A stretch of DNA of 62,468 nt, filler included, from Chrysochromulina tobinii (Eukaryota): the NCBI GenBank assembly GCA_001275005.1. It is 3 parts of 3 records of this genome, joined end to end, with 100 filler letters (N's around TTAATTAATTAA, not from the genome) between each part and the next. Parts side by side here need not be neighbours in the genome. Positions count along the whole stretch, not along the records: positions 12,562 to 31,174 come from JWZX01001331.1; positions 31,275 to 62,468 come from JWZX01001332.1; 1 more part is not named here. One strand, 5' to 3'. Numbering within the stretch: the stretch's first letter is position 1; the number at the start of each line of letters is the position of its first letter. Under the pieces are notes generated by a model that had not been told where the DNA came from, did not search any database, and worked only from the letters and a program-made list of their open reading frames with translations. A program made the translations under genes and the position numbers. This document shows, piece after piece, positions 12,562 through 52,052 of the stretch.

Positions 12562-15500
12562 GCAGCGGCGACCGATGCGCCCGAGACGGCGTCGCTTCCG
12601 AGCGGCGGCGCCGCCCCGAGCGCCACTGACGAACCCCAGACCAGCCGGGTGACGAAACCGAAGGGCGACGAAACCGACGGCGCCGAGGGAGGGCGACTGA
12701 CGAAACCCAAGGGCGGCGAAACCGACGGCGCCAAGGGAGGGCGGCTGACGAAACCGAAGCGGAGCGCCGCCGACGGAGGGGCAGTTGGCGGGATGGACAA
12801 GTCCATATTAGGCAAGTCCACCGACACGTCTTTGGGGACCGCCGATGCCGCCGCTGCCGCCGCTAGTACGGCCGCGAGCATCAGCGACGCCACCGCCGCC
12901 AGGAACGTCAGTAACGCCATCGCCAGCGCGAACAAGACGCGCCGTAGCGGCGGCAACGCCGTCGCGGGCGCCACGGGTCGCGTCGTCGCGGGCGCCACGG
13001 GCCGCGTCGTCCCCACAGGCCGCGACAGTCGCGCTCACGACGACGCTCCGCCGCCCGCGGTCGTGGCGGCGCGCCGTCGCGGGCTCCTCGGCTGGCTGCT
13101 TGGCTGCTGCTTCCCCGACGGGTCTGGCACCGAGGAGGAGGAGAGGAGCGCCGTAGCGGGCACGCTGCCGCTGCCAGCCAGTGCGTCCACCACCGGCGCC
13201 GTATCGGGCGCCACTGCCTCGGGGGCCGCGGCGCTCCGTTCACAGTGCGCTCTTCACACCCGGACCTAACTCACCCCAACAGGCCTCCCTCGCATGCAAG
13301 CGCTCACCACGACGCCCCATCTCCCCCCCTGCCCCCCTGCGTGCGCGCAGGCGCGACGCGCTGCAGGCCGAGTGCCGTGCCTTGCGTGCCGAGCTCGCCG
13401 CCGCCGCCGCCGCCCGGGACAGCGCGCAGCCCAGCACCGCTGGTGGGGGAGGTGCCCAGGACAGCGCCCGCGCCCGTGCGAGCGCCGCCGCAGCAGCCGC
13501 AGTGAGCGCCGCCCTGGAGGAGCAGGTGAGTGTCGTTAATTGCCTCTCCTGATGGCCTCTTCTGATGGCCTCTGATTGCACCTCTGATTGCGCCTCTGAT
13601 TGCGCCTCTGATTGCGCCTCTGATCGAGCATCGCCCTGGTGGAGCAGGTGGCGGCGGCCGAGGCGGCGGCGGCGGCGGCGCAGGCGGCGGCGACGGCGCA
13701 CGAGGCGCAAAGCAAGGTGAGTCTCGTCAATTGCCTCTGCAGTGCCTGTTCTGATGGCCACTGAGTAGGCGTCTCTGACGAAACTCTGCGGACGGATTGC
13801 AGGAGCTCCAGCGCGAGCTGATGGCCTCTGATTGCCTCCCTGACGAATCTCGGACGAATCCCTGACGAATCTCGGACGAATCTCGGACGAATCTCGGACG
13901 AAATGGCAGGAGCTCCAGCGCGAGCTCACGGCGGCGGCGACGGCGAGGGCGGCCGAGGCGGCGGCGACGGCGAAGGCGGCCGAGGCGGTGGCTGCGCTCG
14001 ACGATGCAGCGGCCGAGGTACGATCGCCTGCATGCACGTGCTCATCACGGCGCCGCGTCCGTCGTTCACGCCGCCTTCCTCGCTCGTTCACACCCCGTGC
14101 TCCTCGTTCACAGGTGCGCTCGCTACGTGAGCAGCTCGACGCGGCGGCGAGTGCGGCGGCGGCGGCGGCGCTCACGACGGCGCGCGAGTGGCAGGCGAAG
14201 CTCGACGCTCACGACGGCGCGAGCGCCGAGGCGGCAGCGGCGCTCGAGACGGCGCTCCAAAACAGGCAGGCGGCGCTCGAGACGGCGCTCGAGGCGGCGA
14301 CGGCTCGCGCTGGAGCGCTGGCGGAGGACGTCGACCGTTTGAGCGCCGAGTTGAGCGCTGCGAAGGCGGCCCTCGTCGCGGCGGAGCGTGCGGCCGAGGC
14401 GCAGCAGAAGGCGAGCACTCTGATGGCCTCTGATGACCTCTGAGGACCTCTGATGACCTCTGATTGCCTCGGATTGCCTCTGCTGATGACCTCTGAGGAT
14501 GGCTGATGGCCTCCCTCATCAGGCAAGCACTCTCGAGCTCGCCGCCGCTTGATGGCCTTTGATTGCCTCACTAATTAGATGGATTGCCTCCCTCATCAGG
14601 CAAGCACTCTCGAGCTCGCCGCCGCGAACGAGAGAGCCGCGATGCACGCGGCGGCAAGCGCCGAGTTGAGCGCCGACCTCGCGAGCCTCCAGGCGCGTGT
14701 GCGTGCGGCCGAGGCGGCGCAGGCGGCGGCGCAGGCGGCGGCCGAGGCGGCGTCGACGACGGCGGCGAGGGCGGCGGCCGAGGCGACGGAGGCGACGGAG
14801 GCGCTCGCGGCCGCGCATCGAGCGACGGCGCAGGCTGAAGCGACCCTTGCGACGGCCGAGGCGCAGGTGAGTGTCGTTAATTGCCTCTTCTGATGGCCTC
14901 TTCTGATTGCGTCTCTGATTGAGCGCCGCCCTGGTGGAGCAGGTGGCGGCGGCCGAGGCGGCGGCGAGTGGCGCGGCGGCGGCGCTCGCGACGGCGCTCG
15001 ACGAGCAGGCCGAGCAGCTCGATGCGAAGGATGCGGTGCTCGCTTTGTACAAGGGGCGGCTTGAGGACGTTACGGAAGCGTCGCGCCGGGCACTCGACGC
15101 TGCGGGCGCACGTGCGCGCGCGAACGGCCGCGTCGCGTTTGGGGTACGCTGATTGCCACTGATGACCGCTGATGACCTCTGATGACACCTCTGATGACAC
15201 CTCCGAGGACCTCTGATGACACCTCTGATGACACCTCTGATGACACCTCTGATGGCCGCTGATGACCGCTGATGACCGCTGATGACCTCTGATGGACGGT
15301 GATGACCTCTCTTCCCACAGGTGCTCACTCAGTCAGTGGCACTACCGGCAATGCTGTTGACACGCTCGAGCACGGGTCCGGCAGCGCCGCCGTGGGCACC
15401 CCACCCGCTGCAGGGTTGGTGGATGGCTGGTCTCCAATCGAGCGGTCTCAAGCGCCACAGGACGCGCGCAACCACGTCGGCGGCGCGCGCGGCGGTCGCG

Positions 15501-17751
15501 CTGCTGCCCCCGATGTGCGCGGCGGCGAAGGCGACTTCGTACGAGGCATGTGCGCTTCTGGTCGCGGCGGAGGCGGCGGAGGCGGAGGTGCGATCTGCGC
15601 GCGAGCTCGCGAGCTCGGCGATGAAGGCGCGGGGCGAGCGTGCGCGAGATCGAGAGGAGATCGCGAGGGTGGCGCGGCAGCTGGCGACCATGGACGCGCA
15701 GGTGAGTGCATTTTGAAGGCCTCTTGAAGGCCTCTCGATGACCTCTTGATTACCTCTCGATTGCCCATTGATTGCCCATCGAGTGTTGATGTGGCATCCA
15801 TGGATGCGCAGGTGAGTCTCGTTAATTGCCTCTTGATGACCTCTTGTTTGCCCATTGATTGCGTGTTGATGTGGCATCCATGGATGCGCAGGAGGCGGCT
15901 GTGGAACCGATGGGGCTTGCGGACGCGGGCGACGAAACTGACGAAACCACACCTCCCGCGGCTGTGGAACCGGAGGGGCTTGCGGACGCGGGCGACGAAA
16001 CTGACGAAACCAGCGGCGTGGTGGAAGCCCCAGCAACGAAACCGACGAAACTGACGGAGGAGTGCGGGGCGGGCGCGCCCGCTGCCGATGGCGCCGTGAT
16101 GGGCGCGGTCGAGGGCGCCGTGATGGCGGACGCACTCAGCGGGGAGGCGGAGGGCGCCGTGATTGCGGACGCACTCAGGGAGGAGGCGGATGCGGCGCTG
16201 TCACGTCTGTTGATGGGCGATCACGTGGCCGAGATCAGCGGCGAGATTGTGGCCGAGATCAGCGGCGACCATGTGGCCGAGATCAGCGATGATAATGTAG
16301 CCGAGGTCGCACCTGCCGACTGGGGCTTCAATGATGCTGCTCAACACGACGTCAAGGACGCTGCTCAACACGACGCCAAGGACGCTGCGTCGAGTATCAA
16401 TGAGGACGCAGCTGCCCCTGTCGACCGTGCTCAGCACGACGCTGCTCAACACGACGCCAACGACGCTGCTCAACACGACGCCAACGGTCCCGCCAGTGCG
16501 GCCGGCGATTCTGCCGGTGGCTCGTTCCAAACTAGGAGCTGGCCGCCCGCCCCTAATTTGGAACGAGCCGCCGACACGCTATCCAAGGCGGAGGCGGAGG
16601 CGCCGCCGCCACCTCCGCCGCCGCCAGCGCCGCCACCGCCCTCGCCGCCCTCTCCGCCGCCGCCCTCGCCGCACGCGGTCATGAGTGATTACGGATCGCC
16701 TTCGTTCCGGGAAGAGGCGACGAAACATTTGACGAATTCCCTCGACGCCCTGGCGCACGGCTGGGCGGCGCTCGACACGGCGCTCGCGGCCCAGCCGGCC
16801 ACGTGGCAGTTGCCGAATGCAGCCGCTGATTGCATGCGGCGCGCGAGCGAGCAGCACGCGGCTCTGCTCGCGTGCTTGGGTCGCTCGCTCCGGGTGCAGG
16901 TACGCTGATTGCATCTGATGACCCGCCCTTGCATGCATGTGCTCACCACGGCGCGATGCGGCGGGTAAGCTGATTGCATCTGATGACCTGCACTTGCATG
17001 CACGTGCTCACCACGGCGCCCGGTCTCTCCCCACGCTCCGGGTGCCCTTGCATGCATATGCTCACCACGGCGCCTCGTCTCCCCCCACGCTCCGGGTGCC
17101 CTTGCATGCATATGCTCACCACGGCGCCTCGTCTCCCCCCACGCTCCCGGTGCAGGCGGAGGCTGCGGCGGTGGCGGCGGAGGTGGAGGCGGAGGTGGCG
17201 CAGGTGGCGGCGGCGGTGGCAGGTGGTGGCGCGGGCGTGGGCGGCGCGGCGGGCAAGGGCATGGCATGGGCAGGTGCAGGCTTGCTGGTGGCGACGTGTG
17301 CTCAGGTTGCCTCGGAGGCTCTCACGCAGGTGAGTCTCGTTAATGGCCTCTTGAGTGCCTCTGATTGCTCAGGTTGCTTCGGAGGCTCTCACGCAGGTGA
17401 GTCTCGTTAATGGCCTCTTGAGTGCCTCTGATTGCCAGGCGATGCCGAGTACCACAGATGACCATTGCCAGGCGATGCCGAGTACCACTGATGACCACTG
17501 ATCATCACTGATGACCACTGATGACCACTGATGACCGCTGATGATGACTGATGATGGCTGATGATGGCTGATGTTGACTGATGACCTCTGATGACCACTG
17601 ATGATGGCTCGAGTGGCAGGCGCTGGCCCTCTGCGTGCCATCTGGAGCCGCGACTCAGTCTGTAGCAGCAGGGCCGTCGCCTCCGGCAAATGCGGCGGGT
17701 GGGGCGGGCGGCGGTCTTGGCGGACTCTTCTTCTTTCCGCCGAGACAATGA
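12562..17751 (+). CDS. 5'-truncated 11-exon gene for a large Ala/Glu-rich coiled-coil protein with a hydrophobic segment near the C-terminus
   Basis: Hand-built exons <12562-13244, 13351-13525, 13648-13716, 13910-14017, 14114-14410, 14600-14866, 14943-15143, 15321-15701, 15892-16899, 17156-17329, 17620-17751 (TGA); all junctions are GT/GC..AG and keep frame (first intron phase 2, the rest phase 0). Confidence 0.75.
13526..17619 (+). mobile_element. Cluster of repeat-filled introns, most flanked by duplications (introner-like insertions)
   Basis: Introns 13526-13647, 13717-13909, 14018-14113, 14411-14599, 14867-14942, 15144-15320, 15702-15891, 16900-17155, 17330-17619 share stereotyped ends (GTGAGT(G/C)TCGTTAAT(T/G)GCCTC, GTACGCTGATTGC, GCCTCCCTCATCAG) and CTGAT(G/T)-type fillers or the TGCATGCA..GCTCACCACGGCG cassette. 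Confidence 0.7.
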
Positions 17752-17913
17752 CCGAGATAATGAGTGGGATTGCGCGCGGGAGAGAGAGCAAGCTCATAAA
17801 GTCGTGTATCGGAACATGCGCATACTGAGGCTGTAGTCTGGGTTCGCGGGTTCATTGTTTTTTTTGACCCGCTCGCGACGGCGCTTACGCTCACGGTCGC
17901 GTGAAATATTTAA

Positions 17914-18342
17914 ATGGGGCAAGCCGCCCGGATCGAACTTGACGCCCCGCCGCCGGTGGTCACCACATGGTCCTTTTGGGCGGGCAACTTTGGCTGTGGC
18001 AGCAGCATACAGTGCACGAATTGCACCGTCGCACAGGCGCTCGTCAAGTGCGGCGCGATGCCAATCTACCTCGACACGTATGGCACCAACGTGACCTGCA
18101 ACCGCACAGAGCCAAGTCCAGGCCCGCCACAAAGCTTTCATGGCGAGTTCTCGTGCTGCTCTGAACTCCTCGGGCCAACGACATTCAATGTGAGCAACTG
18201 CTTCTTCTGCCCGGGCGACGCTGACTGCGTGGAGAGCGCGGAGGATGCGACGGACGCGTCAACGGCCGTGGCGGCCACGGCGCCACGTGGCCTATTCTTG
18301 GCCATCCCCTCTTCATTGGAGAGCGTCCCCGCCATAGCTTAG
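17914..18342 (+). CDS. Small Cys-rich hypothetical protein (142 aa)
   Basis: ATG ORF with about 10 Cys and several N-x-S/T sites, suggesting a disulfide-bonded extracellular domain; no family recognised. Confidence 0.45.
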   Translation: MGQAARIELDAPPPVVTTWSFWAGNFGCGSSIQCTNCTVAQALVKCGAMPIYLDTYGTNVTCNRTEPSPGPPQSFHGEFSCCSELLGPTTFNVSNCFFCPGDADCVESAEDATDASTAVAATAPRGLFLAIPSSLESVPAIA

Positions 18343-18688
18343 CTTTGTTTGGTCTGATCGCGGCGGTGTGCTTTTCGTAAATCTCATTTCGCTGTGACGC
18401 CGAGCGGACCGAGCAGCTCTGACTCGGGCCGCGGCCCGCGTAACAGGCCCGCGCCGCTCTAGCACTACATCTGTTCAATCTAAAATAAAATTAGCACAGT
18501 CAGCGGCTTACATACTATGGAAAAACCATGCGAGCGCTCCAATGAGCTTGCTGACTCACTCCTGGAGCCATGAAAAGTAATTTGTGTCGAGAACGAGATC
18601 CAGCCGCCCTGACCCCTGTTCGTGCACTGCGCACTGGCCCCCTGCACAGCTCTTCGTGCCCGCCTACGATGCCACCCGAGCCCTCTCC

Positions 18689-19332
18689 CTACGAGGCCGC
18701 CGCCTTCTCGACCATCTCCGCTAGCTCGCCGTTCTGGTACATCTCGATCAGCAGATCGCAACCGCCCACGAACTCGCCGTCGATGTAGCACTGCGGAATG
18801 GTCGGCCAGTTGGAATGCTTCTTGATCCCCTCACGCACCTGGCGGGCGACGAGACCGACGAAACCGGGTGATGCGCGCGCTCGAGGAGAGTATGCAGCAG
18901 GCGCACGCCGGCGCCGGGCGCTCGCGGGGGCGGGGGCGGGGAGGGGATGGCGGCGCACGTCATTGTCGGCCAGCACGTTAAATGTCTGAAAGTCGCAGCC
19001 GGCGGACTCGGTCACGGCCTTGAGGATCATCACGGCTGTGTTGGAGAAGCCACACTGCGGTTGGATCTTGTCACCTTTCATGAAGAGCAGCACCTGTGGC
19101 AAGGAGCGCGAACCGATAGTCATCGATGTCGACGAACGAGTGAGGCGGCCGTGCGGACACGCCGACTGACCTTGTTGTCAGCAATCATCTTCTCGATGCG
19201 ATCCTTGGTCATAGCCTCGTTGAGCGATGGCGGTGGGCTGCGGCGCCGCACTGACGAGGCCGGAGTCTGGGGCAGCTGCAGCGCCGCCGCCGAGGAGAGC
19301 GCAAGGACGAGCATCGACGCGACGGCCTTCAT
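18689..19332 (-). CDS. Monothiol (CGFS) glutaredoxin, probably plastid-targeted; 3 exons
   Basis: Exons 19332-19171, 19093-18959, 18838-18689 give a signal peptide MKAVASMLVLALSSAAA, then VLLFMKG..PQCGFS, SNWPTIPQ and GEFVGGCD. Confidence 0.92.
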
Positions 19333-19429
19333 TTCACAGTCACTCCCTTCTTCCCTACCGTAGAAATTAACGATCTCACTCCTCTGATCAACTCTGCTCG
19401 CACTCCGCTCGCACTCGGCACTACCATAC

Positions 19430-20580
19430 ATGTACGGCGGCCGCACGAACGACGAGGCTACGCGCTGGGCGTGCCTCGACTCCTCGCCCGAGGTGATCAT
19501 GAGTGGCTTCACGATGAAGCCGCTCAGTCACGAGGAGTTCAACCTCCTCTTCGAGGTGCGCCTGGTGCGCTCCCATACTCTCCACGAGTACACCCGCCTG
19601 TTTGAGGGTGAGCTCATTCGCCTGTGCATGCGCACGCACCACGGCGACGAGGAGCAGCAAAAGCGTTACAAGCAGCTTGACAAGGCGGTCAGAAACGCCA
19701 AGTCCAACTCCAAGAGGCGGAAAGCGCGCGACGAGGGCTACGAGGAGTCGGCGCGCGGCAAGTCCAACGTCAAGAGGCCGACAGCTGGTGCGGAGGGCTA
19801 CGAGGAGTCGGCGCGCGGCAAGATATCGGCCGCTCTGGAGGCGCAGCGCCTCCAGCGTGATCTCGAAGGCCGTGCACGGCGCGGCGCCTCATACGGCGCT
19901 ACACACGCCTTCGTTCTTGCCGAAACTTCTGTGATCATCAAGGCAGAGGAGCTGGCAAGGCGCTACAACCACACCAAACTTGCGCCAACTATGAGCAGGG
20001 CTCCAAGAGCTCCAAGTTCCATGACACGTCTCTCCGGGCCCAAGGAGGAGGAGGAGATGATCTGATGCGACTCGTGTGCACCCGGGCGGCAGCGCCCGTG
20101 ATCGAGCAGGAGGCGGTCGAGCAGGTCGAGCAGGACGAGCAGGCTGAGCAGGAGGCGGCCGACACCGAGGTGGACACCGAGGTGGACGAGGACGAGGTGG
20201 AGCAGGAGGTGGCGGCGGCCGCTGCGCCACCTGCCCCGGCACCCTACGTGACCAGCCCGTTCATGCAGGCGCTCTACGACGACATCTTCGGCGCGGACGG
20301 TGAGAGTGGGGAGTCGTGAGAGTGGGTGAGAGTGGGGAGTCGTGAGAGTGGGGTCGGAGTAGGGCGCTGCCGCGGGGGAAAGCAAGTGGTCGACCTCACT
20401 CTCAGTGACGACGCCGCTCCACCACCTCACCATCATCTCCGCCGCCCGCGCCCGCGTCCTCCTGCTCCGCAACGGAGCCTCCATCCTCACCACGAGCACG
20501 ACGAGGAAATCGTCAATGAGCCTGACAAAGAAGAGCGGGGAACCTGGCCCGGAGAAGGGGGCAGGGGAGGCTGGCCTTGA
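19430..20580 (+). other. Hypothetical gene or decayed gene: ORF 19430-20065 abutting an acidic ORF 20065-20299 that can splice (20300-20362) to 20363-20580
   Basis: TGATG stop/start overlap at 20063-20067; internal 30-nt direct repeat (EGYEESARGK twice); GT..AG intron made of GTGAGAGTGGG repeats keeps frame. Confidence 0.35.
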
Positions 20581-21719
20581 CAGTCTGACCTCGACAGACC
20601 TCTCAGAGTGCGCGGGGGCGGAAGCGGAGGAGGGGGCGGGAGGGTGTCTGAAACCATCTCGAAGTATCTGTGCATTCTGTACAACAACGAGGTTGAACGA
20701 GGTTGACTGTTGCAATGTTCATGGCTGGTTCATGGTTGAGCTTCTCGAGTGTGCATCACCAGGGTTAGGTCTGACTTACCCGCGGACTCAGCCACTCTGA
20801 AGCACTCCGCCATGCATGAGATACTCAGGGTAACTCGCACCATCCTACCAGGCGCGCGTGCATGGGCTTACGGACACTTTGCCACACAGGGAGCCAAGCC
20901 AAGTGGTGGTAAAAAACCACACCGGAAGGCGCCAGGGCTGACTGAGCCCACACTACGCACTCTACATGCGCGTGCACAGATGCTTTGAAAGGGCGACATT
21001 CAACGCGGCCATCGCGCTCCCAAATGCCAACCTGCCAGAGTCCGAATGGGACCACATCCGCTTCGAAGCGCTCATGAAGGCAGCGGAACAGCTCGACCCC
21101 CACGCGCACCACGTGGGTATGGTCATGGCATACTCAAGGACCATCCCCGCCGCCCGCGCCCGCGTCCTCCTCCGCAACGGAGCCTCCATCCTCACCACGA
21201 GCACGACGAGGAAATCGTCAATCCAATCATTCCTAATCCCGGCAATTCCTAATCCAAGGGCGAGAATGTGAGTGCGCCTGGCCACGAGTGGGGCCCATAC
21301 GTGTATGCTCGGCCGCCTCGCCCTTGGCGTGCAGCTCGCGTGCGATCAAGAGCGGAGTGGGGTGGCCGGGTGCCGGGATTAGGGCCTTGGCCGCGGAATG
21401 CTCGCGAGGCGTGCGGCGAGGGCTTCCTTCACCTACACCAACTCCGACCTGTTCCGGTGCCTCGCGAGCGTGCGCTTCTCCGCTTCACACGCTCATCGAC
21501 GCAAAACGTTCCTGGGCAGCCCGGCTACAAACCCCGCACCTACTAAGATTTCCCCCCCTTCCCCCCCCTTCCCCCCCTTCCCCCCCCTCCAAATTTGCAT
21601 GCGGCTGTGCACCAAAACACGCCCCCCGTCGACTTCCGTTCACGCGCAAATTCCCAGATGAACTCCGCGTCGCCTCCCCATCGACCCATCCCGACGAGCC
21701 GCTCGACCCGCCCACCGCG

Positions 21720-21836
21720 TGCTGCGGTCGTGAATTCCGCCTGCGCCGCGCCCTCGAAGCGCACGCGCGCAGCCACGGCGCGTGCGGCAAATCTGGGTGT
21801 ACCTTCGCCGGCAGCCGCGCCGTCCTTCGGCTGCAC
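21720..21836 (+). pseudogene. Fragment of a tandem C2H2-like zinc-finger region (NUFIP1-like spacing)
   Basis: CCGREFRLRRALEAHARSHGACGKSGCTFAGSRAVLRLH; no intact start or continuation. Confidence 0.4.
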
Positions 21837-24005
21837 GGTGCTTGGCCTCGTTCTCGCTGTCACCGCGACGCGCGCAATCCACGTCGAGGTTGATGCGGTG
21901 CAGCTGGGCGTCACCGTGCACACCGATGACCCGCCGCTGCACCGCATCAATCCGCTCTACGTGGGCTGCCACAGCGACAGCGGCTTCACGCACCAGCGCG
22001 GGCGGCGAGCCGACGTACGCGGCGCTGCACAACCGCGGGCTGGGGAACGAGGGGCTTTACTTTGAGGAAGCCAAGCCGTACGAGGGCTTCCTCTTCCGCC
22101 AAATGCAACGGCAGCGCCGCCACGCTCGTCGCGCGGCTCGAGAGCCTTGGCGGCAGGGTGCTCTGATGACGCCCTAATGGCGCCCTAATGACGCCCTAAT
22201 GACGCCCTGATGGCGGCAGTGTGCTCGCAGAGCACACCTTCGAGTTGCTCTCGACGGACTGCGGCACGTGGACGAAGCTCGACGTTCCCCGCGCGCCGTG
22301 CATGCAAGTGCTCACCACGGCGCGGAATGCGGCACGTGGACGAAGCTCGACGTTGCCCGCGCGCCGTGCATGCCAGTGCTCACCACGGCGCGGAATGCGG
22401 CACGTGGACGAAGCTCGACGTTGCCCGCGCGCCGTGCATGCCAGTGCTCACCACGGCGCCCGCCCCTCCTGCACAGGCACGTGGACGAAGCTCGACTTTG
22501 CCCTCGCGCCCAAGACGGGCCCGAGCAAGGCCACTCGTGCGTTCGGTGTGGCGGACGGTTTACCATCGGCCTGACCACTGTGGGGGGTGTGCTCCTCGAT
22601 TTCGTCGTCCTGCAGCCTGGCCCGTGGGGTAGGCTCACTTCAGTTGATGGCGCGCCCCGGCCGGTGCGCAGATGGCCTCCCTGATGGCCTCCCTGATGAC
22701 CTCCCCGATGGCCTCCCTGATGACCTCCCTGATGGCCTCCCTGATTAACGTCGATGGCACGCCCTTGCCGGAGCGCAAACCAAATCATGGTTGATGCCAT
22801 CTGATCGCCTCTGATCGCCTCTGATCGCCTCTGATCGCCTCTGATGACCTCTGATGACCCCTGATGACCTTTGATGGCCTCTGAGGATGGCCGATCGCCT
22901 CCCTCATCAGGTACGCAAGCCAGTCGCCGACGCGCTGCGTGCCATGGGTACAGCCACGCTACGCTGCGTGTGGGTGGCTCCTTCGCCTCCGTCACCGGCT
23001 GGCCGGATGGGGGCGGCTTCACACCGGATGAGGGCTTCACACCGGATGGAGGCTTCACACCGGATGGAGGCTTCACACCGGATGGAGGCTTCACACCGGA
23101 TGGAGGCTTCACACCGGATGGGGGCGGCTTCACACCGGACTCGACCGTCTCGGGTACGTACTACCAGTGGCAGCTGCGAGTGCCTCTTCCACAGCTTTGA
23201 AGCCCAAGCTTTGAACTTGAGTGCCTTGTGCGAGCGATTGAGATGATGTCGGCAAACCAAATAATAATCTATCCCACTGACGGACTGCAAAGTCTTTGTG
23301 ATAGACGAACACAGCTCGCCACTGATCACCGCTCATGGCGCCTTGATGCCCTGATGATGCCCTGATGATGCCTGATGACGCCCTAATGACGCCCTGATGA
23401 CGCCCTGATGACGCCCTGATGACGCTCTGATGACGCCCTGATGATGCCCGCTTACTCCTGTAACGCTCTGATTGCGCGCGCGCCCGTCCTCCCAAATATG
23501 GTAGCGGTGGACCGGCCCGATTTGGAAGCGTCCGAGCGTGGTGTGGAATGCGTACCCAAATATGGTGACTCGTACTCGCTCATTGGGGGCTGGGGGCCAT
23601 TTAATTTCATCGACATGTGCGCGGCCCTGGGCATCGAACCGCCTCTGATGACCTCTGATGGGCTCTGATGACCACTGATGACCTCTGATGGGCTCTGATG
23701 GGCTCTAATGGCCTCCCTCATTAGGTGGCAGCGATGGAAGCGCGTTGCCTCCCTCGATCTGAACGGCACGCTGCGCTACATCTTCCCCGACAATGGCGGA
23801 CTCAATGCAATCAGAGGCAATCAGAGGCAATCAGAGGCAATCAGAGACAATTGCGGACTCAATGCGGACGACGTGATGAAGGCCAAAGCGCTCGGCATCG
23901 ACGCTCAGATTGCGGCCGAGATTCACGTGGGAGCCGGCGGAGGGCTCGACGAGGCTGCGCACCTCTTCGCCCGCCACCCCGACTTCCACCAATCTGCGGT
24001 CAACC
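21830..24005 (+). pseudogene. Decayed GH51-like (alpha-L-arabinofuranosidase-type) glycoside hydrolase
   Basis: Colinear fragments in shifting frames: INPLYVGCHSDSGFTHQ, NRGLGNEGLYFE, FVVLQPGPWGR, LRVGGSF, YYQWQ, RWTGPIWKRPS, LIGGWGPFNFIDMCAALGIEP, IHVGAGGG; several deletions, frameshifts and repeat insertions. Confidence 0.55.
23003..23139 (+). repeat. 18-bp coding minisatellite (GGCTTCACACCGGATGGA)n
   Basis: About 7 tandem units encoding GFTPDG. Confidence 0.9.
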
Positions 24006-24417
24006 GACGGCGAGGTTGACATGTACAGGCTCCTCTTTCCGAGGGAGGTTAGAGGTAAAGCCGGGATATAATCATTGTTGAGCACGGTGATGGGATCTTC
24101 TGCCTGTACCACCAGAATTACGCCATGCTCGACTTCATTTTAATAAATAGCGCCGAGTTGGGACGAGTCGGTGAGGACGATCTGCCTTGGTCTCAGTTCG
24201 ATTCAACCTAAATCGGGTCACACAAATCACAATTCTAGGTGTTCCCTAATTGGTTAATGTGTCGGCTTGCATGCAACTGTCTCTCAGGAGACGGGTAGGC
24301 ACCGATATGGCGCTACACTTTTATTAAGGACTGGGTCCGAAAAGCGAATCCTTCCGTTCGGACATGACGCTACCATGGATCGCTCTACGCAACTCGCGCG
24401 TGCTTAGTTTGATAGTT

Positions 24418-26313
24418 TCAGAATCCGACGCCTGCACCTTGATCCGCGGCTGAATCTTGTGACGGTGGAAGGACCTCTTCAGCCGCTACCTGGCTCCGCT
24501 TGGGCGGTGGCTTCTTCTTCGGCAGGGGCGGAGCCTCGAGCGTCGTCTCGGTTGCTGAGGCGGGCTCGGCGGATGACGCTGACTCCGTCGCCGCCTCCAC
24601 CCCGAGCACTCCCACCGCCTTCGGCTTCTTAGGTGGCGGCGGCTTCTTCGTTTTTGCTGGCGCCTCGGCCTCAGGCTCGGCTGTCCGGTCGGCTCCTGGC
24701 GCGGCTACCGCTTCGTCCGTCGCCTTGGCACGCTTTGGAGGGGGCGGTTTCTTTGGTGGCGGCGCTGCCGCCGCGTCCGCTTCCGCCGCCCCGTGCGCCG
24801 CCTCCGACTTGGCTCTTTTGGGTGGAGGAGCTCGCTTCGGTGGAACAGCCTCCGCATTCACCGCGTCCACCGCGCCGGCCAGATTCGTGCGCTTTGGCGG
24901 CGGCGCCCGCTTGGGCGGCGGCACCCCCACCCCGTCACTGCGAATCTGAAGCATCTTGATTTCCTGCTGTCCAAGACCCGATGTCAGAGACTCTGGACCG
25001 GTCAGATGGGGAGATGTGATCTCCGCCGCGCCGCCCGACACCACCGACTTGGAGCGTTTGGGGGGCGGCGGAAGGCGCTTTGGGGGCGCCGCCACTGCAT
25101 TCACCGCATTCAACGCGCCCACCGTGGCCGCCGATTTCGTGCGCTTTGGCGGAGGCGGCCTTCTGGGAGGCGGAGGTGCCGAGCCATCATCCGCTGCTCT
25201 CGGCGACAACGCGCCTACCGCCCGGATCTGCCGCAGTTTCGCCTCTTCTCGACCGAGAATCTCGCTCGCAGATGCCGCAGGATGCGCCATTGGCATGTCA
25301 ACAGCAGCGCCCGAGGGCGCATACATCCACGAGAATCGCGGCGGACGACGCGTCGTCTGGGCGCCCGCGAGATCGCGTTTGAGATCGCGTTTGGGGCACG
25401 CGAGGCTCTTGCCGTCGCCGACCCTTCTCATGAGCTCATCGACGCTCGGCACGCCCACGACCTTGACGTGCTTTCGAATGTCCGTGTCGAGCTTTCGTTC
25501 ATGCCCAGCGAGGTCCATCCGGGCTCCGAGGGACCACGTTGCTGGCCGGTGGCGATACATGCAGTTGCAGAAGTAGAAGCACAGCACCAGGAACAGCACG
25601 CTAAGCACGATGGCCGCCACGGCGCCCGCGACCAAGTAGCTGGAGCCAAACCGCGACCAAGTAGCTGGTGGAAGTGAAGGCGGCGATGGAGGCGACGGCG
25701 CGGCAGGCAGCGCATACACCTCCAGCTCCGCGATCGTGAGTGGCAGGGCGCTCCGCTGCACCACGGTCACAAAGCGTCCCCACGTGCCAGCAAAGCAGTC
25801 CGCTCGCAGGACGCCACGATGCAAGGGCGGCGGCGACGGCGACGGTGCTGATGCACATGCCGTCGATGGCAGCACGCAGGGTCTGGCACTGATGGCAGTA
25901 TCGCCGTGGGCATGGCTGCTCACCCATATTTCCATGCAGCTCGCGGTGTAGAAGGCATCTGGCCGGTTGTACAGCAGCACCGATCCAATTTGTGAGCCAT
26001 CGGGCACCTCCACTGACATCCATTTACTGCTCGTGCCAGATGAGGCACCGAAACTGTCCCAGTCCGAGTCGATCGCCTTCTCAGCTGGTTGACTAGGCGT
26101 GAGCGCGCTGCTCGCAGCACTCTCACGAGTGAGCACCTGCAGCGGGAGTGGGTACAACTCCGCAGAGGCCCACACAGTCAGGTTGCCTCCGCGCCAAGGG
26201 CGGATGGAGTTGAGAAACCCCTCCATCCGACCACAGAACCGTCTACAAGAAGAGAGAGAGGCACCTTCAACCGCCGCTGATGGCGTGTGAACGTGAACTC
26301 GACGGAGGGACAA
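24418..26313 (-). CDS. Single-pass membrane protein: galactose-binding-like (F5/8 or fucolectin-type) domain, TM helix, cytosolic PPPK(R/K) repeats
   Basis: AEKAIDSD..KWMSVEV..IGSVLLYNR..GRFVTV..LTIAELEVY, then the hydrophobic LVAGAVAAIVLSVLFLVLCFYFC and many PPPK(R/K) motifs; 5' end uncertain. Confidence 0.65.
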   Translation of the reverse strand: MSLRRVHVHTPSAAVEGASLSSCRRFCGRMEGFLNSIRPWRGGNLTVWASAELYPLPLQVLTRESAASSALTPSQPAEKAIDSDWDSFGASSGTSSKWMSVEVPDGSQIGSVLLYNRPDAFYTASCMEIWVSSHAHGDTAISARPCVLPSTACASAPSPSPPPLHRGVLRADCFAGTWGRFVTVVQRSALPLTIAELEVYALPAAPSPPSPPSLPPATWSRFGSSYLVAGAVAAIVLSVLFLVLCFYFCNCMYRHRPATWSLGARMDLAGHERKLDTDIRKHVKVVGVPSVDELMRRVGDGKSLACPKRDLKRDLAGAQTTRRPPRFSWMYAPSGAAVDMPMAHPAASASEILGREEAKLRQIRAVGALSPRAADDGSAPPPPRRPPPPKRTKSAATVGALNAVNAVAAPPKRLPPPPKRSKSVVSGGAAEITSPHLTGPESLTSGLGQQEIKMLQIRSDGVGVPPPKRAPPPKRTNLAGAVDAVNAEAVPPKRAPPPKRAKSEAAHGAAEADAAAAPPPKKPPPPKRAKATDEAVAAPGADRTAEPEAEAPAKTKKPPPPKKPKAVGVLGVEAATESASSAEPASATETTLEAPPLPKKKPPPKRSQVAAEEVLPPSQDSAADQGAGVGF

Positions 26314-26589
26314 CCTACAGCTCAGTTACTGCCTGCTCAGAATACACGGGTGTGTGTGAACTGGCTGTTATACTCGGCCGCCTACTACATTCTTTGGATC
26401 TCGGAATCTATGGTACCCGGTAGGGCACGCAGGAAGGCAGGATTCTTCTCAGGAGATGAGGTTGAGGAGGGCAAGGAGTAGGGGCGTGGGCCTCCAGATA
26501 TGGGGTTCGTTGAGGAAGTCTGTGAATAGGTCCAGAGTTGACTTGACTTGACTTGAACTTGACTAGGCTTCCAAATTTGGACAGAGCGC

Positions 26590-28695
26590 ATGTCTGCACT
26601 TATACCGAATGAGCTTGAGCTTGTCGAGCAGCCTGCGTCGGGATTTGGGCTCTTAAATCGCGCGAATAATTCGGAACGCCTCGCCTTCGGATACCAGGCG
26701 CCCTCAGCGTGCTACTTTACGGATGAAACGATCGAGCTGCCTGGCGGGCTCGTGTGCCGCAAGCCACCGCCCTTTGCACAACCAAAGGCGCGACTGCCTT
26801 TGCTCACATCGGCGACCGGCGCCAAGCCGCTGCTCAGCGCAGCGCTGGCGCGGAAGCACGCGTCATCGGACAATATGCTCATCGTGACGTACGTGAATCG
26901 CGTGCGCGTCGACTTTGCACTTGCATGGGTGCGCCACCTCACGGCCTTGAAGCAGCCGCACCACCTCGTGGCCGCGCTGGACGGGGACGCGCTCGCAGCC
27001 CTCGAGGCCCACGGTGTGGCCACTTACCTTTTGAACTACTCGATGCTCGGCGGCGACGACACGGGGTGGGGAACGCAAGCGTTCCGCAAGCTTGGGCTTG
27101 TCAAGGTTCAAATGGTCCTTGACTTGGCGCGCACTGGCGTCGACACCCTCACCGTCGACGCGGACGCCATCATCCTGCGCGACCCGCTGCCATACTTTCG
27201 CCGGTACCCGCAGGCCGACGTGCTCATGAGCTCAGACCACCTCAATGCCACCAACGGCTATGATGACGACGGGCTCGAGAGCGAGGATGCCTTTGGCAGC
27301 GCGTTCAACATTGGGTTCATCTTCATTCGTAGCCGCGCGGTCGAATTCGTCCAAGCGTGGCGCGACGCATGCTTTGAGCATGCGAGCTCCTGGGACCAGC
27401 AGCTGTTCGCCGACGTGCTGCGCCGCGACGACGGCGGCGAGGCCGGCAGCGCCTCGGGGCCACGAACCGTCCGACGTACCGACCGTTTGGTACCGATGAG
27501 ATTCCGCACGAGCGTGGGCATGCCAGTCCTCGCGGGCGTATTGCCTGTGGCGCTCTTCGCTTCTGGACACACGTACTTCGTGCAGCGGATGGCGCACAGG
27601 ATGCGCACGACGCCCTACATGGTGCACGCGACCTTCCAATACGGTGGTTCGCAAGGCAAGCGCCATCGGCTCCGTGAGGCAATGATATGGGAGGATGAGC
27701 CTGAGTACTACACGACGCGGATGCTCTCCTATGAAGCGGACGTGCCATCAGAGCTCGTGTACCCGGCAGCACGGGCGACGCGCCGTCTGCACGCGCGACG
27801 CGCCGGCAGCACGCCCGATGCGCCGGTGTGCAACCAGAGCCAAGGCGAGCCCATGACCGTCGAGGATCACTTTCGGCTCGTGAACCACCAGCTGCGTCAG
27901 CTACGCAACGCGCTCGCGCTAGCTCAGGCGCTCGGCCGCGTGCTCATCTTACCGCGGCTCGTGTGTGGGCTGGACCGATGGTGGGCGCCGCACAAGGGCA
28001 ACATCCCGGGTGCGGACACGCGGCTGCCGCTGCTCGAGTGCCCTGCGGACCACGTCATTGACCTTGAGGCGATGGGCAAGCCCGAGGCTTTGCTCCGCGA
28101 GCACAGCATCCTGTGCAACCCGCGCATGCCCGCTGCCGCCCTGCGCGAGGCCGCACACGAGAGGCTCCCGGTGAGGCTCCCGGGTGTCGGCTGGACGTTT
28201 GGCTCCGGAGAGGAGGGCAACGGGGGGACGAGCGGCGGCGGCAGCAGCAACGATGGCGAGGGCATGGCGACACGCATCAGCGACCTCCTCTACCGACAGG
28301 GCACGCACGACGAGCTCTATGCCCAAGCCCAGCACCGGCGGCTCGCCGTTGCCAAGCTCCTCGGGCGCCTGGACCAGCAGTACGCGAAGACGGCCGTGCT
28401 CAAAGTCTCCGGCCCGCTGCCCGACTATCGCGATCTGCTGGGCGGCGAGGGTCGCTCTGGGGATGCGGAAGACGAGGACGCTGACACCGTCGTGCGCGCG
28501 CACGCGGGTGCGAACGCGGTCGGCCCATTTGAGAGGACGGTGGAGTCGTGGGCGTCGCTGTGGTGCTGTAAGAATCCGCCGGGCGGCAAAGGGGCCGGGC
28601 ACATATGGTATGACTTCCTTTGGGACGTGGTGCCGCACCACGATCGGCACCGGCGGATCTGGAAGGAACCGTGGAAGCCAATCATGGGTCCCTGA
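26590..28695 (+). CDS. Nucleotide-diphospho-sugar transferase (GT77), similar to arabinosyltransferase XEG113
   Basis: DxD motif (VDADAIILRDP), WDQQLF, HATFQYGGSQGKRHRLREAM, HFRLVNHQL..LILPRLVCGLDRWW, CPADHVID, WCC..GHIWYD. Confidence 0.8.
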   Translation: MSALIPNELELVEQPASGFGLLNRANNSERLAFGYQAPSACYFTDETIELPGGLVCRKPPPFAQPKARLPLLTSATGAKPLLSAALARKHASSDNMLIVTYVNRVRVDFALAWVRHLTALKQPHHLVAALDGDALAALEAHGVATYLLNYSMLGGDDTGWGTQAFRKLGLVKVQMVLDLARTGVDTLTVDADAIILRDPLPYFRRYPQADVLMSSDHLNATNGYDDDGLESEDAFGSAFNIGFIFIRSRAVEFVQAWRDACFEHASSWDQQLFADVLRRDDGGEAGSASGPRTVRRTDRLVPMRFRTSVGMPVLAGVLPVALFASGHTYFVQRMAHRMRTTPYMVHATFQYGGSQGKRHRLREAMIWEDEPEYYTTRMLSYEADVPSELVYPAARATRRLHARRAGSTPDAPVCNQSQGEPMTVEDHFRLVNHQLRQLRNALALAQALGRVLILPRLVCGLDRWWAPHKGNIPGADTRLPLLECPADHVIDLEAMGKPEALLREHSILCNPRMPAAALREAAHERLPVRLPGVGWTFGSGEEGNGGTSGGGSSNDGEGMATRISDLLYRQGTHDELYAQAQHRRLAVAKLLGRLDQQYAKTAVLKVSGPLPDYRDLLGGEGRSGDAEDEDADTVVRAHAGANAVGPFERTVESWASLWCCKNPPGGKGAGHIWYDFLWDVVPHHDRHRRIWKEPWKPIMGP

Positions 28696-41039: not shown

Positions 41040-43232
41040 ATGGAAAGGGCTGCGAATTCGGCGATTCTGGCCGTTCCGCACCGGCGCTCATCGCAGCTTG
41101 CCTTCCGTGGCATCCCATCCAAGGGCGCCACCGGCAACGCCGAGGCCACGCTCCGACTCTACGGTGGCGGCACCGCCCGTGACACATTGCTCTCTCAGCA
41201 GCCGGCGCCCAAGCCGTTCTCGCCAGAGGAGCCAGCGCCAGCGCCGTATGGCGCGCCCGCCGTGGCCGGGCCTGCGCCTGCCGCGCCCAAGTTCAACCTG
41301 CACCAGCTACGCCTCAAGCACGCGCGCGAGCAACCGATCAGCATGGTGACCGCCTATGACTACCCGAGCGCGCGCATCGCCGACGGCGCGGGCGTGGACA
41401 TGCTGCTCGTGGGGGACTCGGTGGGCATGGTGGTGCTCGGGCGCAAGGACACGACCGAGGTAACTATGGACGAGATGGTGCACCACTGCCGCGCCGCGGC
41501 CACGGGCACGAGCCGCGCGCTGCTCGTAGGCGACCTCCCCTTTGGCTCGTACCTCACGGCGGAGGATGCGGCGCGCAACGGCGTGCGGCTTGTCAAGGAG
41601 GGGCGAGCGGACGCGGTCAAGCTCGAGGGAGGTGGGCGTGTGGTGCCGCAGGTTCGCTCGCTCGTCGATGCGGGAGTCGCCGTCATGGGCCATATCGGCC
41701 TCACGCCACAGTCGTACGCGGCCCTCGGCGGCTACCGCGTGCAAGGGCGCACGGGCGCCGAGGCGGCGCGCCTGTTCGAGGACGCACTCGCGCTGCAGGC
41801 GGCGGGGTGCTTCGCGATCGTGCTCGAGATGGTGCCCGCCGAAGTCGCCCAGCGCATCACGAGTCTGCTCGCCATCCCCACGATCGGCATCGGCGCGGGC
41901 GGCGGTACCTCGGGCCAGGTGCAAGTCTTCCACGACCTCCTCGGGCTGTACGACCAAAAGGTGCCAAAGTTCGTGCGCCAGTTCAGCAAGCTCGAGCAGC
42001 CGATGCGTGACGCCCTCGCCCAGTATGTGCACGCTGTCGACGCGCGCGCCTTCCCACAGCCACGCCACACCTTCCCCATCAGCCACGAGCACCTCGGCGA
42101 CTTTTGCCGCCGCGTCGGCCTGCCGCCGCCGCAGACGCCACCGCCGCCGCCGCCGGTGGCCAACAATGTCGTCGCCGATGGCCTTCGGGACGGCGCCCGG
42201 GATGGCGCCGCCCCCATCGTCGACGCACATGCCGTCTCGATCAGCACCAATGGCCTCACCCCAACCAACACCGCTGCGGCGGCGTCTACCCCGGGTCGCG
42301 CGGCGGTTGCGCTCGCGGGCGTGGGCGCGGACGGGCGCACGGCGCCCCAAGTCGTGAGCACGATCGCCGAGTGGCGCGCACTGCAAGCGCGCGGCGTCGT
42401 GCCACGCGGCGCTCTGGGCTTCGTACCCACGATGGGGGCATTGCATGAGGGACACCTGAGCCTTGTGAGACTTGCGCGCGAGCGGCACGAGCGCGTGGCC
42501 GTCTCCATCTTCGTCAACCCGAAGCAGTTCGCGGCACATGAGGACCTGGGCAAGTACCCACGCACCTTCGAGGCGGACCTCGAGGCGCTCTCGCGCGCCG
42601 GCGGCGTCGACTTCGTCTTCGCGCCGCGCGCCGAAGAAATGTACCCTCGCGGGCCGCGAGGCGCACGCCTCGCGCCGTTTGTCGACCTCGAGGGCGCGGA
42701 CGTGGTCGGCGAGGGGGCGGCGCGCCCGGGCTTCTTCCGCGGCGTGGCGACGGTCGTGACCAAGCTGCTGAACATCACGCAGCCCCGGGCCATGTACCTC
42801 GGCCAGAAGGACGGCATGCAGTGCATCGTGCTCCAGCGCCTCGTGCGCGACCTCGACTTCGACGTGGAGGTCGTGGTGGGACCGACTGTACGTGCGCCCG
42901 ACGGCCTCGCCCTCTCGAGCCGCAATGTGTACCTGTCCGCCGAGGAGCGCGCGGCGGCGCCCGCCGTGTACGCCGCCCTGACTGCCGTCGCCGACGCGTA
43001 TGCCCAAGGCGAGCGCTCGGCAGCTAGGCTGCGCGCGCGCGCCGCGGCCGTCATCGGGGCGCAGCCTCTGATGGCCCTCGACTACCTGAGCCTCGCGAGC
43101 ATGCAAGATGGCCAAGAGCTCGAGGGACTGCTGGGCGGCAGCACGGGCGGCGAAGACGCCGCCGGCGTGCTCGCGGCGATCGCGGTGCGCCTTGGCAACA
43201 CGCGCCTCATCGACAACGTGGTGCTCGCGTGA
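41040..43232 (+). CDS. panB-panC: Fused ketopantoate hydroxymethyltransferase (PanB) and pantoate-beta-alanine ligase (PanC)
   Basis: PanB: MVTAYDYPSA, LLVGDSVGM, GDLPFGSY, VKLEGG, GHIGLTPQ, PTIGIGAG; Pro/Ala linker; PanC: GFVPTMGALHEGH, SIFVNPKQF, RPGFFRGVATVVTKL, GQKD, DGLALSSRN, TRLIDN; uninterrupted ORF, exact start uncertain. Confidence 0.92.
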   Translation: MERAANSAILAVPHRRSSQLAFRGIPSKGATGNAEATLRLYGGGTARDTLLSQQPAPKPFSPEEPAPAPYGAPAVAGPAPAAPKFNLHQLRLKHAREQPISMVTAYDYPSARIADGAGVDMLLVGDSVGMVVLGRKDTTEVTMDEMVHHCRAAATGTSRALLVGDLPFGSYLTAEDAARNGVRLVKEGRADAVKLEGGGRVVPQVRSLVDAGVAVMGHIGLTPQSYAALGGYRVQGRTGAEAARLFEDALALQAAGCFAIVLEMVPAEVAQRITSLLAIPTIGIGAGGGTSGQVQVFHDLLGLYDQKVPKFVRQFSKLEQPMRDALAQYVHAVDARAFPQPRHTFPISHEHLGDFCRRVGLPPPQTPPPPPPVANNVVADGLRDGARDGAAPIVDAHAVSISTNGLTPTNTAAAASTPGRAAVALAGVGADGRTAPQVVSTIAEWRALQARGVVPRGALGFVPTMGALHEGHLSLVRLARERHERVAVSIFVNPKQFAAHEDLGKYPRTFEADLEALSRAGGVDFVFAPRAEEMYPRGPRGARLAPFVDLEGADVVGEGAARPGFFRGVATVVTKLLNITQPRAMYLGQKDGMQCIVLQRLVRDLDFDVEVVVGPTVRAPDGLALSSRNVYLSAEERAAAPAVYAALTAVADAYAQGERSAARLRARAAAVIGAQPLMALDYLSLASMQDGQELEGLLGGSTGGEDAAGVLAAIAVRLGNTRLIDNVVLA

Positions 43233-47317: not shown

Positions 47318-47994
47318 GAACGTGCAATCAAGTCCAAGTCATGTCAAGTCAAGCTGTCAAGGCAAAGGCAGCGGTAGTGCGGTACCGTTGCATACACCTC
47401 AATTCCTTATACTCGAGCCGCATGATGCGAGTGCGCAGAGAGTGAGGGCGCAGAGCGACCGAGGGCCGGCAGCCGTGGTGCCGTGCGGGCGCAGCAAGTG
47501 GCTCCAGACGGTGGGCCACAAGCCCCGCGACCAAGCGATGCAAGTCCCGCCCAAGTCAGAGCTAAATTAGCTAAAGTACAGCTGCATACGCTATTACTGA
47601 TTACAGTATAGATATCACACCCGGTACCTCACACCATGATGGGTCCTCCCAGGGGCAGGGGGTGCGCCAGGGGAGAGCACAGTCAGCAGAGGCGACGAGG
47701 GCGGCGCGAGCGGGTGCCGGTTTGGGCGCCTTAACTCATATAACTTGTGTCGCGCAGGCTTACTGTTAGACCTTCACCTTCGTAAGTTGCACATCATAAC
47801 AAAATCAAACAATGGCGGAACCGGAAGGGAGCAAGGGACCTACGGGGGGATGGGAATGCAATGAAGGCTGACCCCCGCGCGACTCGCGTAGTGAGGACCT
47901 GTTCTGACGGCGCGGTTCCTCGTCCCATTCGCATTCCATACATGTATTATCGATAACATCGTATTCCATACATGATATTATCGGATCCATGAAA

Positions 47995-50754: not shown

Positions 50755-52052
50755 TCACCTCATCTCCCACGGCGGTGTCGCTTCCCACGCCCACCACCCG
50801 CCGCCACCGACACCACCTTCCAACGCGTGCACCGTGGCGCCTCCGACCGCCGCCGAGAGATCCTCAGCGCTCGAACCACACACGGGCTTTGAGCAGCAGA
50901 CGCGGAGGGCGCCCTGCAGCACGACGCGGCGAGGAGCGCTGCCAGAGCGACCAGGTGCCCACCCATCGCCATCCGTCGGGGTCGCCTCCTTGATCTCGGC
51001 CTCGATCTCGGCCTTGATCTCGGCCCAGCGCAGCCGCCCAGCGCGCCATCGCATGGACACGCGCCAACCGCCGCGCGCCCGCAGCCCGCTGACGTCGCCG
51101 TCCGTCCAGGCGGGCGGCAGCGCAGGGAGCAGCCTCAGATCGCACATGGCGGCGGGAGCGGCCGCAGCGGCGGGCGTGTTGGGTGTGAGCGGGCGCGAGT
51201 GGAGGAGCATCTCGGCGACGCCCGAGACGACGCCGCCGTTGGCGTCGAGCTGGAAGACCCCGCTGCCTGGCGTGGCCGACGTCGCGCGCGTTGCGCACGG
51301 CGCGCATTTGCCACCACCTACCGCTCGCTTGCCGACGAGCTTTGGGTGTAGCCCCAGGAGCGCATCGGAGGCGAACTCGTGCAGCGTGTACCGTAGCGCC
51401 GCGTGCGCCCTCCCGCCATCAAAGAGACGCGCCCACAGGCTCACGGCCCACGCGGCCGACCAGCCCACATGCGCACCGCCCGCGCGCAGCCGGCGCTCAA
51501 TCGAGCGCCTCGCCGCCCGCGCGTGTGTCGGATGCTCGAGCCCATCGAGCGTGTGGCCCGGGTGCAGCGCGTACAGGTGTGAAAAGTGGCGATGCCCTTC
51601 GTCCGCTGCTGGCTGTGCGTCACCCGTGCCCCACTCAGCGAGCTCGCCTAGTGAGGGAAGCAGTCGCAGCTCATCAGAGGCAATCAGAAAAGTCATCAGC
51701 GGCACTCCCCATTCAGCGAGCTCGCCTGCCCACGAGAGCTGCGGCAGGCCACGGTTAGGGTTCGGGTTCGGGTTCGGGTTAGGGTTAGCTCGCCTGCCGA
51801 CGAGAGCTGCGGTAGGCCGCCACCGGGCAGCCGCGGCAGCAGCGCCGCCATGCGTGCACCTAGAGCTCGGTCTACCGGCCCGAGGCTCCCAAGGGCCTCG
51901 AGAAAGTGAACTGCCACCACCACGGCGCGTATGAGGTGGGCAATCACGCCCAGGTCGATCGCCACGTCGTACGCGAGGATGCGCGTCGCGCTCCCGTTGT
52001 GCCCATCGAGGTACGCGTTCTCGGGCGAGTGCGACGGGCCCCAGCGCAACCG

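What the first reader, a model, noticed from the sequence alone, without database searches (positions are those of the whole stretch)
13504..51818. Candidate intron-generating system: local duplication of a proto-splice site plus a stereotyped repeat filler
Seen: in three unrelated genes (coiled-coil gene, GH51-like pseudogene, GH95), insertions are bracketed by direct repeats of host sequence, and for the introns the offset equals the intron length. Examples: 13504-13528 vs 13626-13650 (22/25, offset 122); 14409-14421 vs 14521-14533 (12/13, offset 112); 15682-15702 vs 15792-15812 (18/21, offset 110); 16886-16900 vs 17142-17156 (14/15, offset 256); 22148-22163 vs 22211-22226 (15/16); 51629-51649 vs 51707-51727 (20/21); 51719-51750 vs 51787-51818 (30/32). 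The duplicated piece usually spans AG|G(T/C), so one copy supplies the donor and the other the acceptor. The interior is not a fixed-length element with TIRs but a variable number of short repeats. Established: introner elements of algae such as Micromonas and Aureococcus are transposon-derived with short TSDs, and intron gain by double-strand-break repair with short flanking repeats has been proposed. Inference: staggered breaks filled by a repeat-synthesising (telomerase- or RT-like) activity would give exactly this structure. I cannot exclude that this has already been described for haptophytes.
Basis: partly seen in the sequence, partly recalled or inferred. Interest (0 to 1): 0.9.

Follow-up and report, generated by a model that had tools for sequence, protein, structure and literature searches.

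The report
Introns copied from neighbouring introns
In this haptophyte alga many short introns are bracketed by fresh 11-50-base copies of the host gene's own sequence and filled with repeats that often match another intron of the same gene, and some are absent from near-identical alleles, which likely means that DNA repair copying existing introns, rather than a transposon, is making new introns here.

Summary
All 7 repeat pairs are real. The alga belongs to the Chrysochromulina tobinii/parva group. The pattern is genome-wide: in public contigs, 46 of 91 acceptors of one filler family have an upstream copy of the next exon's start (0.5-1.4% in controls), median 21.5 nt, 96% identical. Removing the offset length restores reading frames and protein alignments. 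Two of 15 allele pairs show empty sites with one copy. Unit number varies later between alleles. Best reading: microhomology-primed templated insertion that copies an existing intron, filtered by splicing. Splicing was not shown in RNA, the enzyme is unknown, and most fillers have no local source. It works like Daphnia break-repair introns, with longer repeats and an identified template; it fails MITE-introner tests. The scan noted the same footprint earlier in this genome and in two others.

The parts
13504..13650 (+). Predicted intron 13526-13647 (122 nt, GT..AG) in a coiled-coil gene; its 3' end copies the upstream exon end (22/25); donor GTGAGT(G/C)TCGT(T/C)AAT shared by 6 introns of this gene
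13717..13909 (+). Two back-to-back units (13717-13802, 13803-13909) with no exon between; the second starts GA and carries a 17-nt copy of the next exon start
14409..14625 (+). Two back-to-back GC..AG units (14411-14522, 14523-14599) with 11-nt and 26-nt copies of the next exon start, both ending in the fixed acceptor CCTCCCTCATCAG
14867..14942 (+). Paralogue of the 13526 intron; its 3' end matches the exon end at 13504-13525, not its own upstream exon (carried by an internal gene duplication)
15682..15892 (+). Two back-to-back units (15702-15811, 15812-15891); the second duplicates 29 nt of the end of the first, so it arose later at the same junction
   Evidence: DNA contig across 15266-15835
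16886..17156 (+). Predicted intron 16900-17155 (256 nt), 14/15 copy of the upstream exon end, 54-nt internal tandem repeat of the GTGCTCACCACGGCG filler type
17299..17619 (+). 67-nt tandem duplication across a donor (17330-17396) followed by intron 17397-17619
22148..22226 (+). 63-nt insertion with a 15/16 repeat, no AG in register; filler matches the tract at 23344-23449 of the same frameshifted gene
22255..22500 (+). Three 68-nt units plus acceptor, with four copies of the exon start
23789..23865 (+). 57-nt in-frame insertion with a 19/20 repeat and the filler in ANTISENSE orientation, not spliceable in register: likely an unselected raw event
51648..51725 (-). GH95 gene, 78-nt GC..AG unit: copy of the next exon start (20/21) plus CTGAT-type filler
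51726..51793 (-). GH95 gene, 68-nt GC..AG unit: 30/32 repeat across AG|GC, telomere-like filler with variant units; abuts the 78-nt unit
50755..54494 (-). GH95 glycoside hydrolase host gene; removing 146 nt gives a protein that aligns across the site without an insertion to 8 homologues shown

Best explanation
These are young, likely spliced introns flanked by 11-50-nt copies of host sequence, likely made when a DNA end in an exon anneals through a few matching bases to an existing intron (often one 0.2-0.9 kb away in the same gene), copies 35-100 nt of it and rejoins so that a stretch of the target is duplicated. Shown: duplications, empty alleles, frame restoration, local filler matches, junction microhomology. 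Inferred: (1) a staggered break or stalled fork gives a 3' end; (2) a Pol-theta-like or template-switching polymerase copies the source; (3) because the annealing words are often the source's own junction (AG|GT...), the duplication tends to begin or end at a proto-splice site, so the copy brings one splice site and the duplication supplies the other; (4) selection keeps products that reach about 60-70 nt, carry branch-like words in sense and splice; (5) each new intron becomes a template, and slippage or exchange between the direct repeats later changes unit number and builds back-to-back arrays. The template could be DNA or unspliced pre-mRNA.
For: Duplication: 46 of 91 vs 0.5% and 1.4% nulls; 11-45 nt, 1018/1062 identical, 40 of 46 start GT/GC; 34 of 120 filler blocks not selected by the search pattern also carry one. 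Intron function: frame continuity 39 of 47 testable, 25 of 33 non-3n, p=7.5e-7; open frame of 1164 codons vs 349 unspliced; gap-free alignment of GH95 and of a PPR protein to 6 relatives including an MMETSP transcript. Gain: L023 and the C. tobinii protein lack the 79-nt unit of L010; L097 lacks the 197-nt array of L055. Local template: best match in own locus 20 of 198 vs 2.8; top 5% rank 14 of 50 vs 2.5, 7 of 31 loci vs 1.6, 10 of 36 with non-paralogous flanks; the new L010 filler's 15-mer occurs only in that gene and shares L010's own variant base. Microhomology 3.5 vs 0.96 nt (22 of 46 testable). In L030 the copy runs 2 nt plus a 5-nt match into the source's exon. Duplication and filler lengths anticorrelate (rho -0.65, n=69). 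An antisense unspliceable event exists.
Against: No RNA joint across a flagged interval was seen (shallow contigs, table cut). 36 of 50 fillers had no top-ranked local source, and none was seen in the window for the GH95 fillers. Exon starts behind the fixed acceptor are no more alike within genes than between (2.20 vs 2.09 nt), so the priming-at-junction step has only case support. Exon capture rests on one case. Polarity is unproven: deletion between the direct repeats also gives an empty allele, and the shared base in L010 may be ancestral. 8 of 47 frame tests failed. Loci were chosen by one 20-nt pattern. No polymerase gene was examined.
Confidence: 0.58

Rival explanations
2. Remodelling, not gain: old introns are rewritten by tandem duplications across a splice junction, then the old unit is lost; empty alleles are reversions.
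For: Junction-spanning duplications and arrays do occur (17299-17439, 22255-22459, L055 vs L036 and L098); 8 of 46 have several copies.
Against: 38 of 46 have a single upstream copy; relatives' GH95 and PPR proteins come from long contigs and run across the sites (that they were called as unspliced ORFs is inferred); fillers match other introns of the gene.
Confidence: 0.1
3. Telomerase or another reiterating polymerase writes the repeats de novo at staggered breaks.
For: One telomere-like filler in the window with 30/32 flanks and one in L109; short-period repeats.
Against: Heterogeneous 10-12-nt units, long gene-specific matches to neighbouring introns (up to 55 nt), variant units in the telomere-like tract. 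May still hold for the telomere-like minority.
Confidence: 0.07
4. Assembly artefact or chance.
For: Short-read assemblies of repeats; L036 and L055 differ by one unit while otherwise identical.
Against: Copies differ by substitutions, recur at the same sites in independent assemblies and alleles, restore frames, and exceed controls about tenfold or more.
Confidence: 0.03

Closest known systems
Daphnia pulex neointrons from repair of staggered double-strand breaks (PMC4202315, passages read)
   Same: Recent, polymorphic introns with a direct repeat of adjacent exon at the opposite intron end; repeated events at one site.
   Different: Daphnia exon-intron repeats are 4-12 bp (33 cases); here 11-50 nt, median about 22-26, and the fill is a recognisable family often copied from a neighbouring intron.
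Introners with target-site duplications: Chrysochromulina sp. family 5 (4-bp TSD, no TIR; PMC9860276, passages and supplement rows); Symbiodinium and Polarella classes (TSD 3-8 nt; 10.1101/2020.10.14.339549, parts 1-2 of 4)
   Same: One or both splice sites recruited from the duplication; all three geometries occur.
   Different: Those have a short fixed TSD per family; here the length varies fourfold, interiors are mosaic and sources are often local. The 2025 survey lists 0 families for C. tobinii, and one 5-copy E. huxleyi family of unknown class noted as '10bp terminal direct repeats' (PMC12130899 supplements).
Tandem genomic duplication across AGGT (review PMC3443670, passages)
   Same: A duplicated proto-splice site gives donor and acceptor; coding sequence unchanged.
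   Different: Here only 11-50 nt are duplicated; foreign filler supplies length and branch-like words.
Templated insertions of alternative end joining / SD-MMEJ; rice non-tandem duplications with locally templated fill (review PMC7407515, passages)
   Same: Microhomology junctions, nearby templates, duplication at staggered nicks.
   Different: Not described as an intron-making cycle in the passages read; sources here lie 0.2-0.9 kb away where found.
10-11-bp tandem repeats in Emiliania huxleyi introns (Read et al. 2013; recalled, not found)
   Same: Short-period repeats concentrated in haptophyte introns.
   Different: As recalled, no link to junction duplications or intron birth was made.

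Membership tests
MITE/TIR-type introner | Terminal inverted repeats | tested here: not met
   0 of 66 fillers with 8/10 terminal complementarity
MITE/TIR-type introner | Short family-specific TSD (3-9 nt) | tested here: not met
   11-45 nt; 14-53 nt in 69 cases selected at score >=14
Introner, broad sense | Dispersed related introns at unrelated sites that co-opt splice sites from the duplication | tested here: met
Introner, broad sense | End-to-end similar copies of a discrete element | tested here: not met
   Fillers of 37-116 nt with mosaic units; only ends or local pairs match
Non-LTR (TPRT) insertion | Variable long TSD, fixed 3' end, 5' microhomology | tested here: met
   Met for the downstream-copy class only
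Non-LTR (TPRT) insertion | Copy ends at an RNA terminus | tested here: inconclusive
   Often ends at or 1 nt before the acceptor AG but runs into source exon in L030
Non-LTR (TPRT) insertion | Partner RT/endonuclease element in the genome | not testable with these tools
   No genome held
Telomerase-mediated insertion | Fill made of telomeric repeats | tested here: not met
   2 telomere-like tracts in all sequence examined, both impure; the TTAGGG unit is recalled
Break-repair intron gain (Daphnia type) | Junction direct repeats above background | tested here: met
Break-repair intron gain (Daphnia type) | Presence/absence among alleles with outgroup-proven gain | tested here: inconclusive
   2 clean cases in 15 pairs; outgroup DNA not seen, only proteins
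Pol-theta templated insertion | Microhomology junctions and nearby template | tested here: met
Pol-theta templated insertion | Dependence on POLQ | not testable with these tools
   needs genetics
Spliceosomal intron | Excised from RNA at these junctions | tested here: inconclusive
   one search shows no listed joint; indirect support

The most novel reading that the evidence does not exclude
A self-feeding, transposase-free route of genome-wide intron gain: existing introns serve as repair templates, their junction sequences steer the copy to proto-splice sites by microhomology, and every new intron seeds more in its own gene, which would also explain why haptophyte introns are full of 10-12-nt repeats and why zero-length exons pile up at junctions.
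Probability: 0.45. Interest if true: 0.88.

Novelty: new variant of a known kind. Interest (0 to 1): 0.75.

Why it matters
The source sequence of new introns is the open part of the break-repair model of intron gain. Here the duplication, the template and empty alleles can be seen together in a cultured, sequenced alga group, so the model becomes testable by population genomics and repair mutants. Introner screens appear to miss it (0 families listed for C. tobinii), so this route may be undercounted. Back-to-back units predict recursive or site-skipping splicing, and they mislead annotation (the C. tobinii PPR model skips exons here).

Tried and rejected
RNA confirmation: laid 3 RNA runs and 1 DNA run on 12562-31174; the 15 joints shown of 841 were repeat noise. 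One RNA contig stops at 15695, the last base that separates copy 1 from later copies, but the record orientation is ambiguous, so it is not counted. No RNA was laid on the GH95 gene. No genome or record was held. No long homologue of the coiled-coil protein. The C. tobinii PPR model skips the exons around one test intron, so it does not test it. No special folding of acceptor ends or introns (z -1.1 to 0.3 in 4 folds); hairpin, hammerhead and Helitron ideas dropped. Within-gene similarity of exon starts: no effect. The splice-agnostic scan gave 77 of 155 locus repeats out of register; many are filler-filler matches or later insertions at existing junctions and were not counted as evidence. One search opened an irrelevant paper. 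Searches that found no paper describing this architecture in haptophytes; the library lacks most subscription papers, bioRxiv supplements are closed, one supplement was cut and two files were not searched.

Full report
Observation. All seven repeat pairs are present with the stated identities and offsets. Six match GT/GC..AG intervals in register; the 22148/22211 pair does not. The window's PanB-PanC protein lies in a 90% cluster with Chrysochromulina tobinii and C. parva proteins. The window is three pieces joined at N spacers; no whole genome was held.

Scale. Summed DNA-contig depth reaches 259,650 at a filler position against about 47-57 on unique sequence (no copy number, but a sign of a large family). 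A scan for a 20-nt acceptor motif returned 125 loci and estimated about 830 stored stretches. From 160 matches I kept 136 distinct, 98 terminal with flanks and 91 non-redundant sites. In 46 of 91 the start of the downstream exon recurs upstream at score 10 or more, against 0.5% of 1820 swapped and 1.4% of 1365 same-gene controls; two of the 46 (L027, L096) look spurious. The copies are 11-45 nt, 96% identical, 19 perfect, and 40 begin GT or GC. After dropping 26 duplicate or orthologous loci, a splice-anchored scan of 99 loci found 96 cases on the filler-sense strand (44 downstream-copy, 33 straddling, 19 upstream-copy) against 10 antisense and 7-11 with shuffled flanks. Among filler blocks not selected by the pattern, 34 of 120 carry such a repeat. 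Not all introns do: several in the coiled-coil gene show none.

Are they introns? Direct RNA proof is missing. Indirect evidence agrees. A codon model trained on 4 window ORFs gave frame continuity in 39 of the 47 testable cases, 25 of 33 where the length is not a multiple of three (p=7.5e-7). Removing 14 intervals from the coiled-coil gene opens 1164 codons against 349; retaining any of the six flagged or abutting units shortens it, while retaining 14018-14113 or 17330-17396 does not. In GH95, removing 146 nt aligns without insertion to the homologues shown; removing only 68 nt scores slightly lower and leaves 26 extra residues (that script's cut was shifted by one base within the repeat, which gives the same product; exact ends). 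In L010, removing two duplication-flanked units and one plain intron gives a 761-aa PPR protein that aligns without gaps at the sites to six relatives, one an MMETSP transcript.

Are they new? Of 15 locus pairs aligned, two show a clean empty site with one copy of the duplicated segment: L023 lacks the 79-nt unit of L010, and L097 lacks the 197-nt three-unit array of L055, while both keep neighbouring introns. The empty L023 exon reads through and is identical to the C. tobinii protein. Four pairs differ by whole extra units and six by 10-11-nt filler steps. Polarity lacks outgroup DNA: deletion between the repeats would look the same.

Where does the filler come from? Filler blocks find their best match in their own locus in 20 of 198 cases against 2.8 expected. 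With duplications and the selected end removed, the own locus ranks in the top 5% for 14 of 50 (2.5 expected); 7 of 31 counting one per locus; 10 of 36 without paralogous flanks. The L010 unit shares a 15-mer found only in that gene, including the base that distinguishes L010's older intron from those of L001 and L023. In the window, one donor word occurs six times in the coiled-coil gene and once in all 125 loci. The duplication-filler junction shows 3.5 nt of microhomology against 0.96 (22 of 46 testable). In several local pairs the match continues 5-7 nt into the source's exon, and in L030 two source-exon bases absent from the target were carried in, which an excised intron cannot supply. 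Against this: 36 of 50 have no top local source, and exon starts are not more alike within genes.

Selection. Branch-like YTRAY words (recalled consensus) number 182 sense against 19 antisense in 69 fillers. Intron length has a floor near 57-68 nt, and duplication and filler lengths trade off. A 57-nt antisense, in-frame, unspliceable insertion with a 19/20 repeat sits in the frameshifted gene at 23789-23865. That suggests, from one case, that the raw event ignores strand and splice sites.

Mechanism. I favour microhomology-primed templated insertion at a staggered break or stalled fork (0.58); these two cannot be told apart from sequence. TPRT on intron or pre-mRNA (0.22), remodelling of old introns (0.10), de novo telomerase-like synthesis (0.07) and artefact (0.03) follow. 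The enzyme is not identified.

Relation to known systems. It works like the Daphnia staggered-break introns (4-12-bp repeats; PMC4202315 passages) and recruits splice sites as introners do (PMC9860276 passages; 10.1101/2020.10.14.339549 parts 1-2). It fails the TIR, fixed-TSD and discrete-element tests. The 2025 survey lists no family for C. tobinii and one small unclassified E. huxleyi family with 10-bp terminal direct repeats (PMC12130899 supplement rows). The C. tobin genome paper has one passage on introns, none on this (PMC4580454 passages). Ten searches found no description of this architecture; repeat-rich E. huxleyi introns are recalled from Read et al. 2013. Earlier scan notes saw the same footprint in this genome and similar cases in two others; they are unchecked notes, not evidence.

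Verdict. Real, genome-wide and recent; a new variant of break-repair intron gain with a visible template. Interest 0.75.

Noticed in passing
window 13717-13909, 14411-14599, 15702-15891, 17330-17619, 51648-51793; L011, L014, L024, L032, L071: Back-to-back intron-like units with zero-length exons (up to five tandem units); they predict recursive splicing or skipped internal sites. One unit starts GA.
   Followed up: partly
window 21840-24020 (+): Fragmented glycosidase-like gene with apparent frameshifts, several filler tracts and an 18-nt coding repeat (23015-23139); probable pseudogene; family not confirmed by Pfam.
   Followed up: partly
window 12462-12561 and 31175-31274: N spacers with a TTAATTAATTAA core: the window is a concatenation of contigs.
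   Followed up: yes
window 7636-9177 and 9398-11000 (+): Tandem near-identical paralogues of a membrane-transporter-like gene; the first copy seems frameshifted near 8155-8180.
   Followed up: no
window 41040-43229 (+): Single ORF fusing PanB and PanC (pantothenate synthesis), shared with C. tobinii and C. parva.
   Followed up: partly
window 3423-3475, 26536-26565, 47325-47355, 55960-55975, 59635-59720: Recurrent intergenic (AAGTC)n / (GACTT)n words, often as inverted pairs.
   Followed up: no
window 50755-54494 (-): GH95 gene whose closest 4 relatives are 43-46% identical and whose next hits are at about 30%, the named ones bacterial; possible old horizontal transfer.
   Followed up: partly
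window 20430-20530 and 21145-21222: Duplicated ~80-nt segment in an intergenic region; DNA contigs show variants there.
   Followed up: no
P0182 versus L010/L023: The public C. tobinii PPR protein model omits about 185 residues encoded by the exons around a filler intron.
   Followed up: partly
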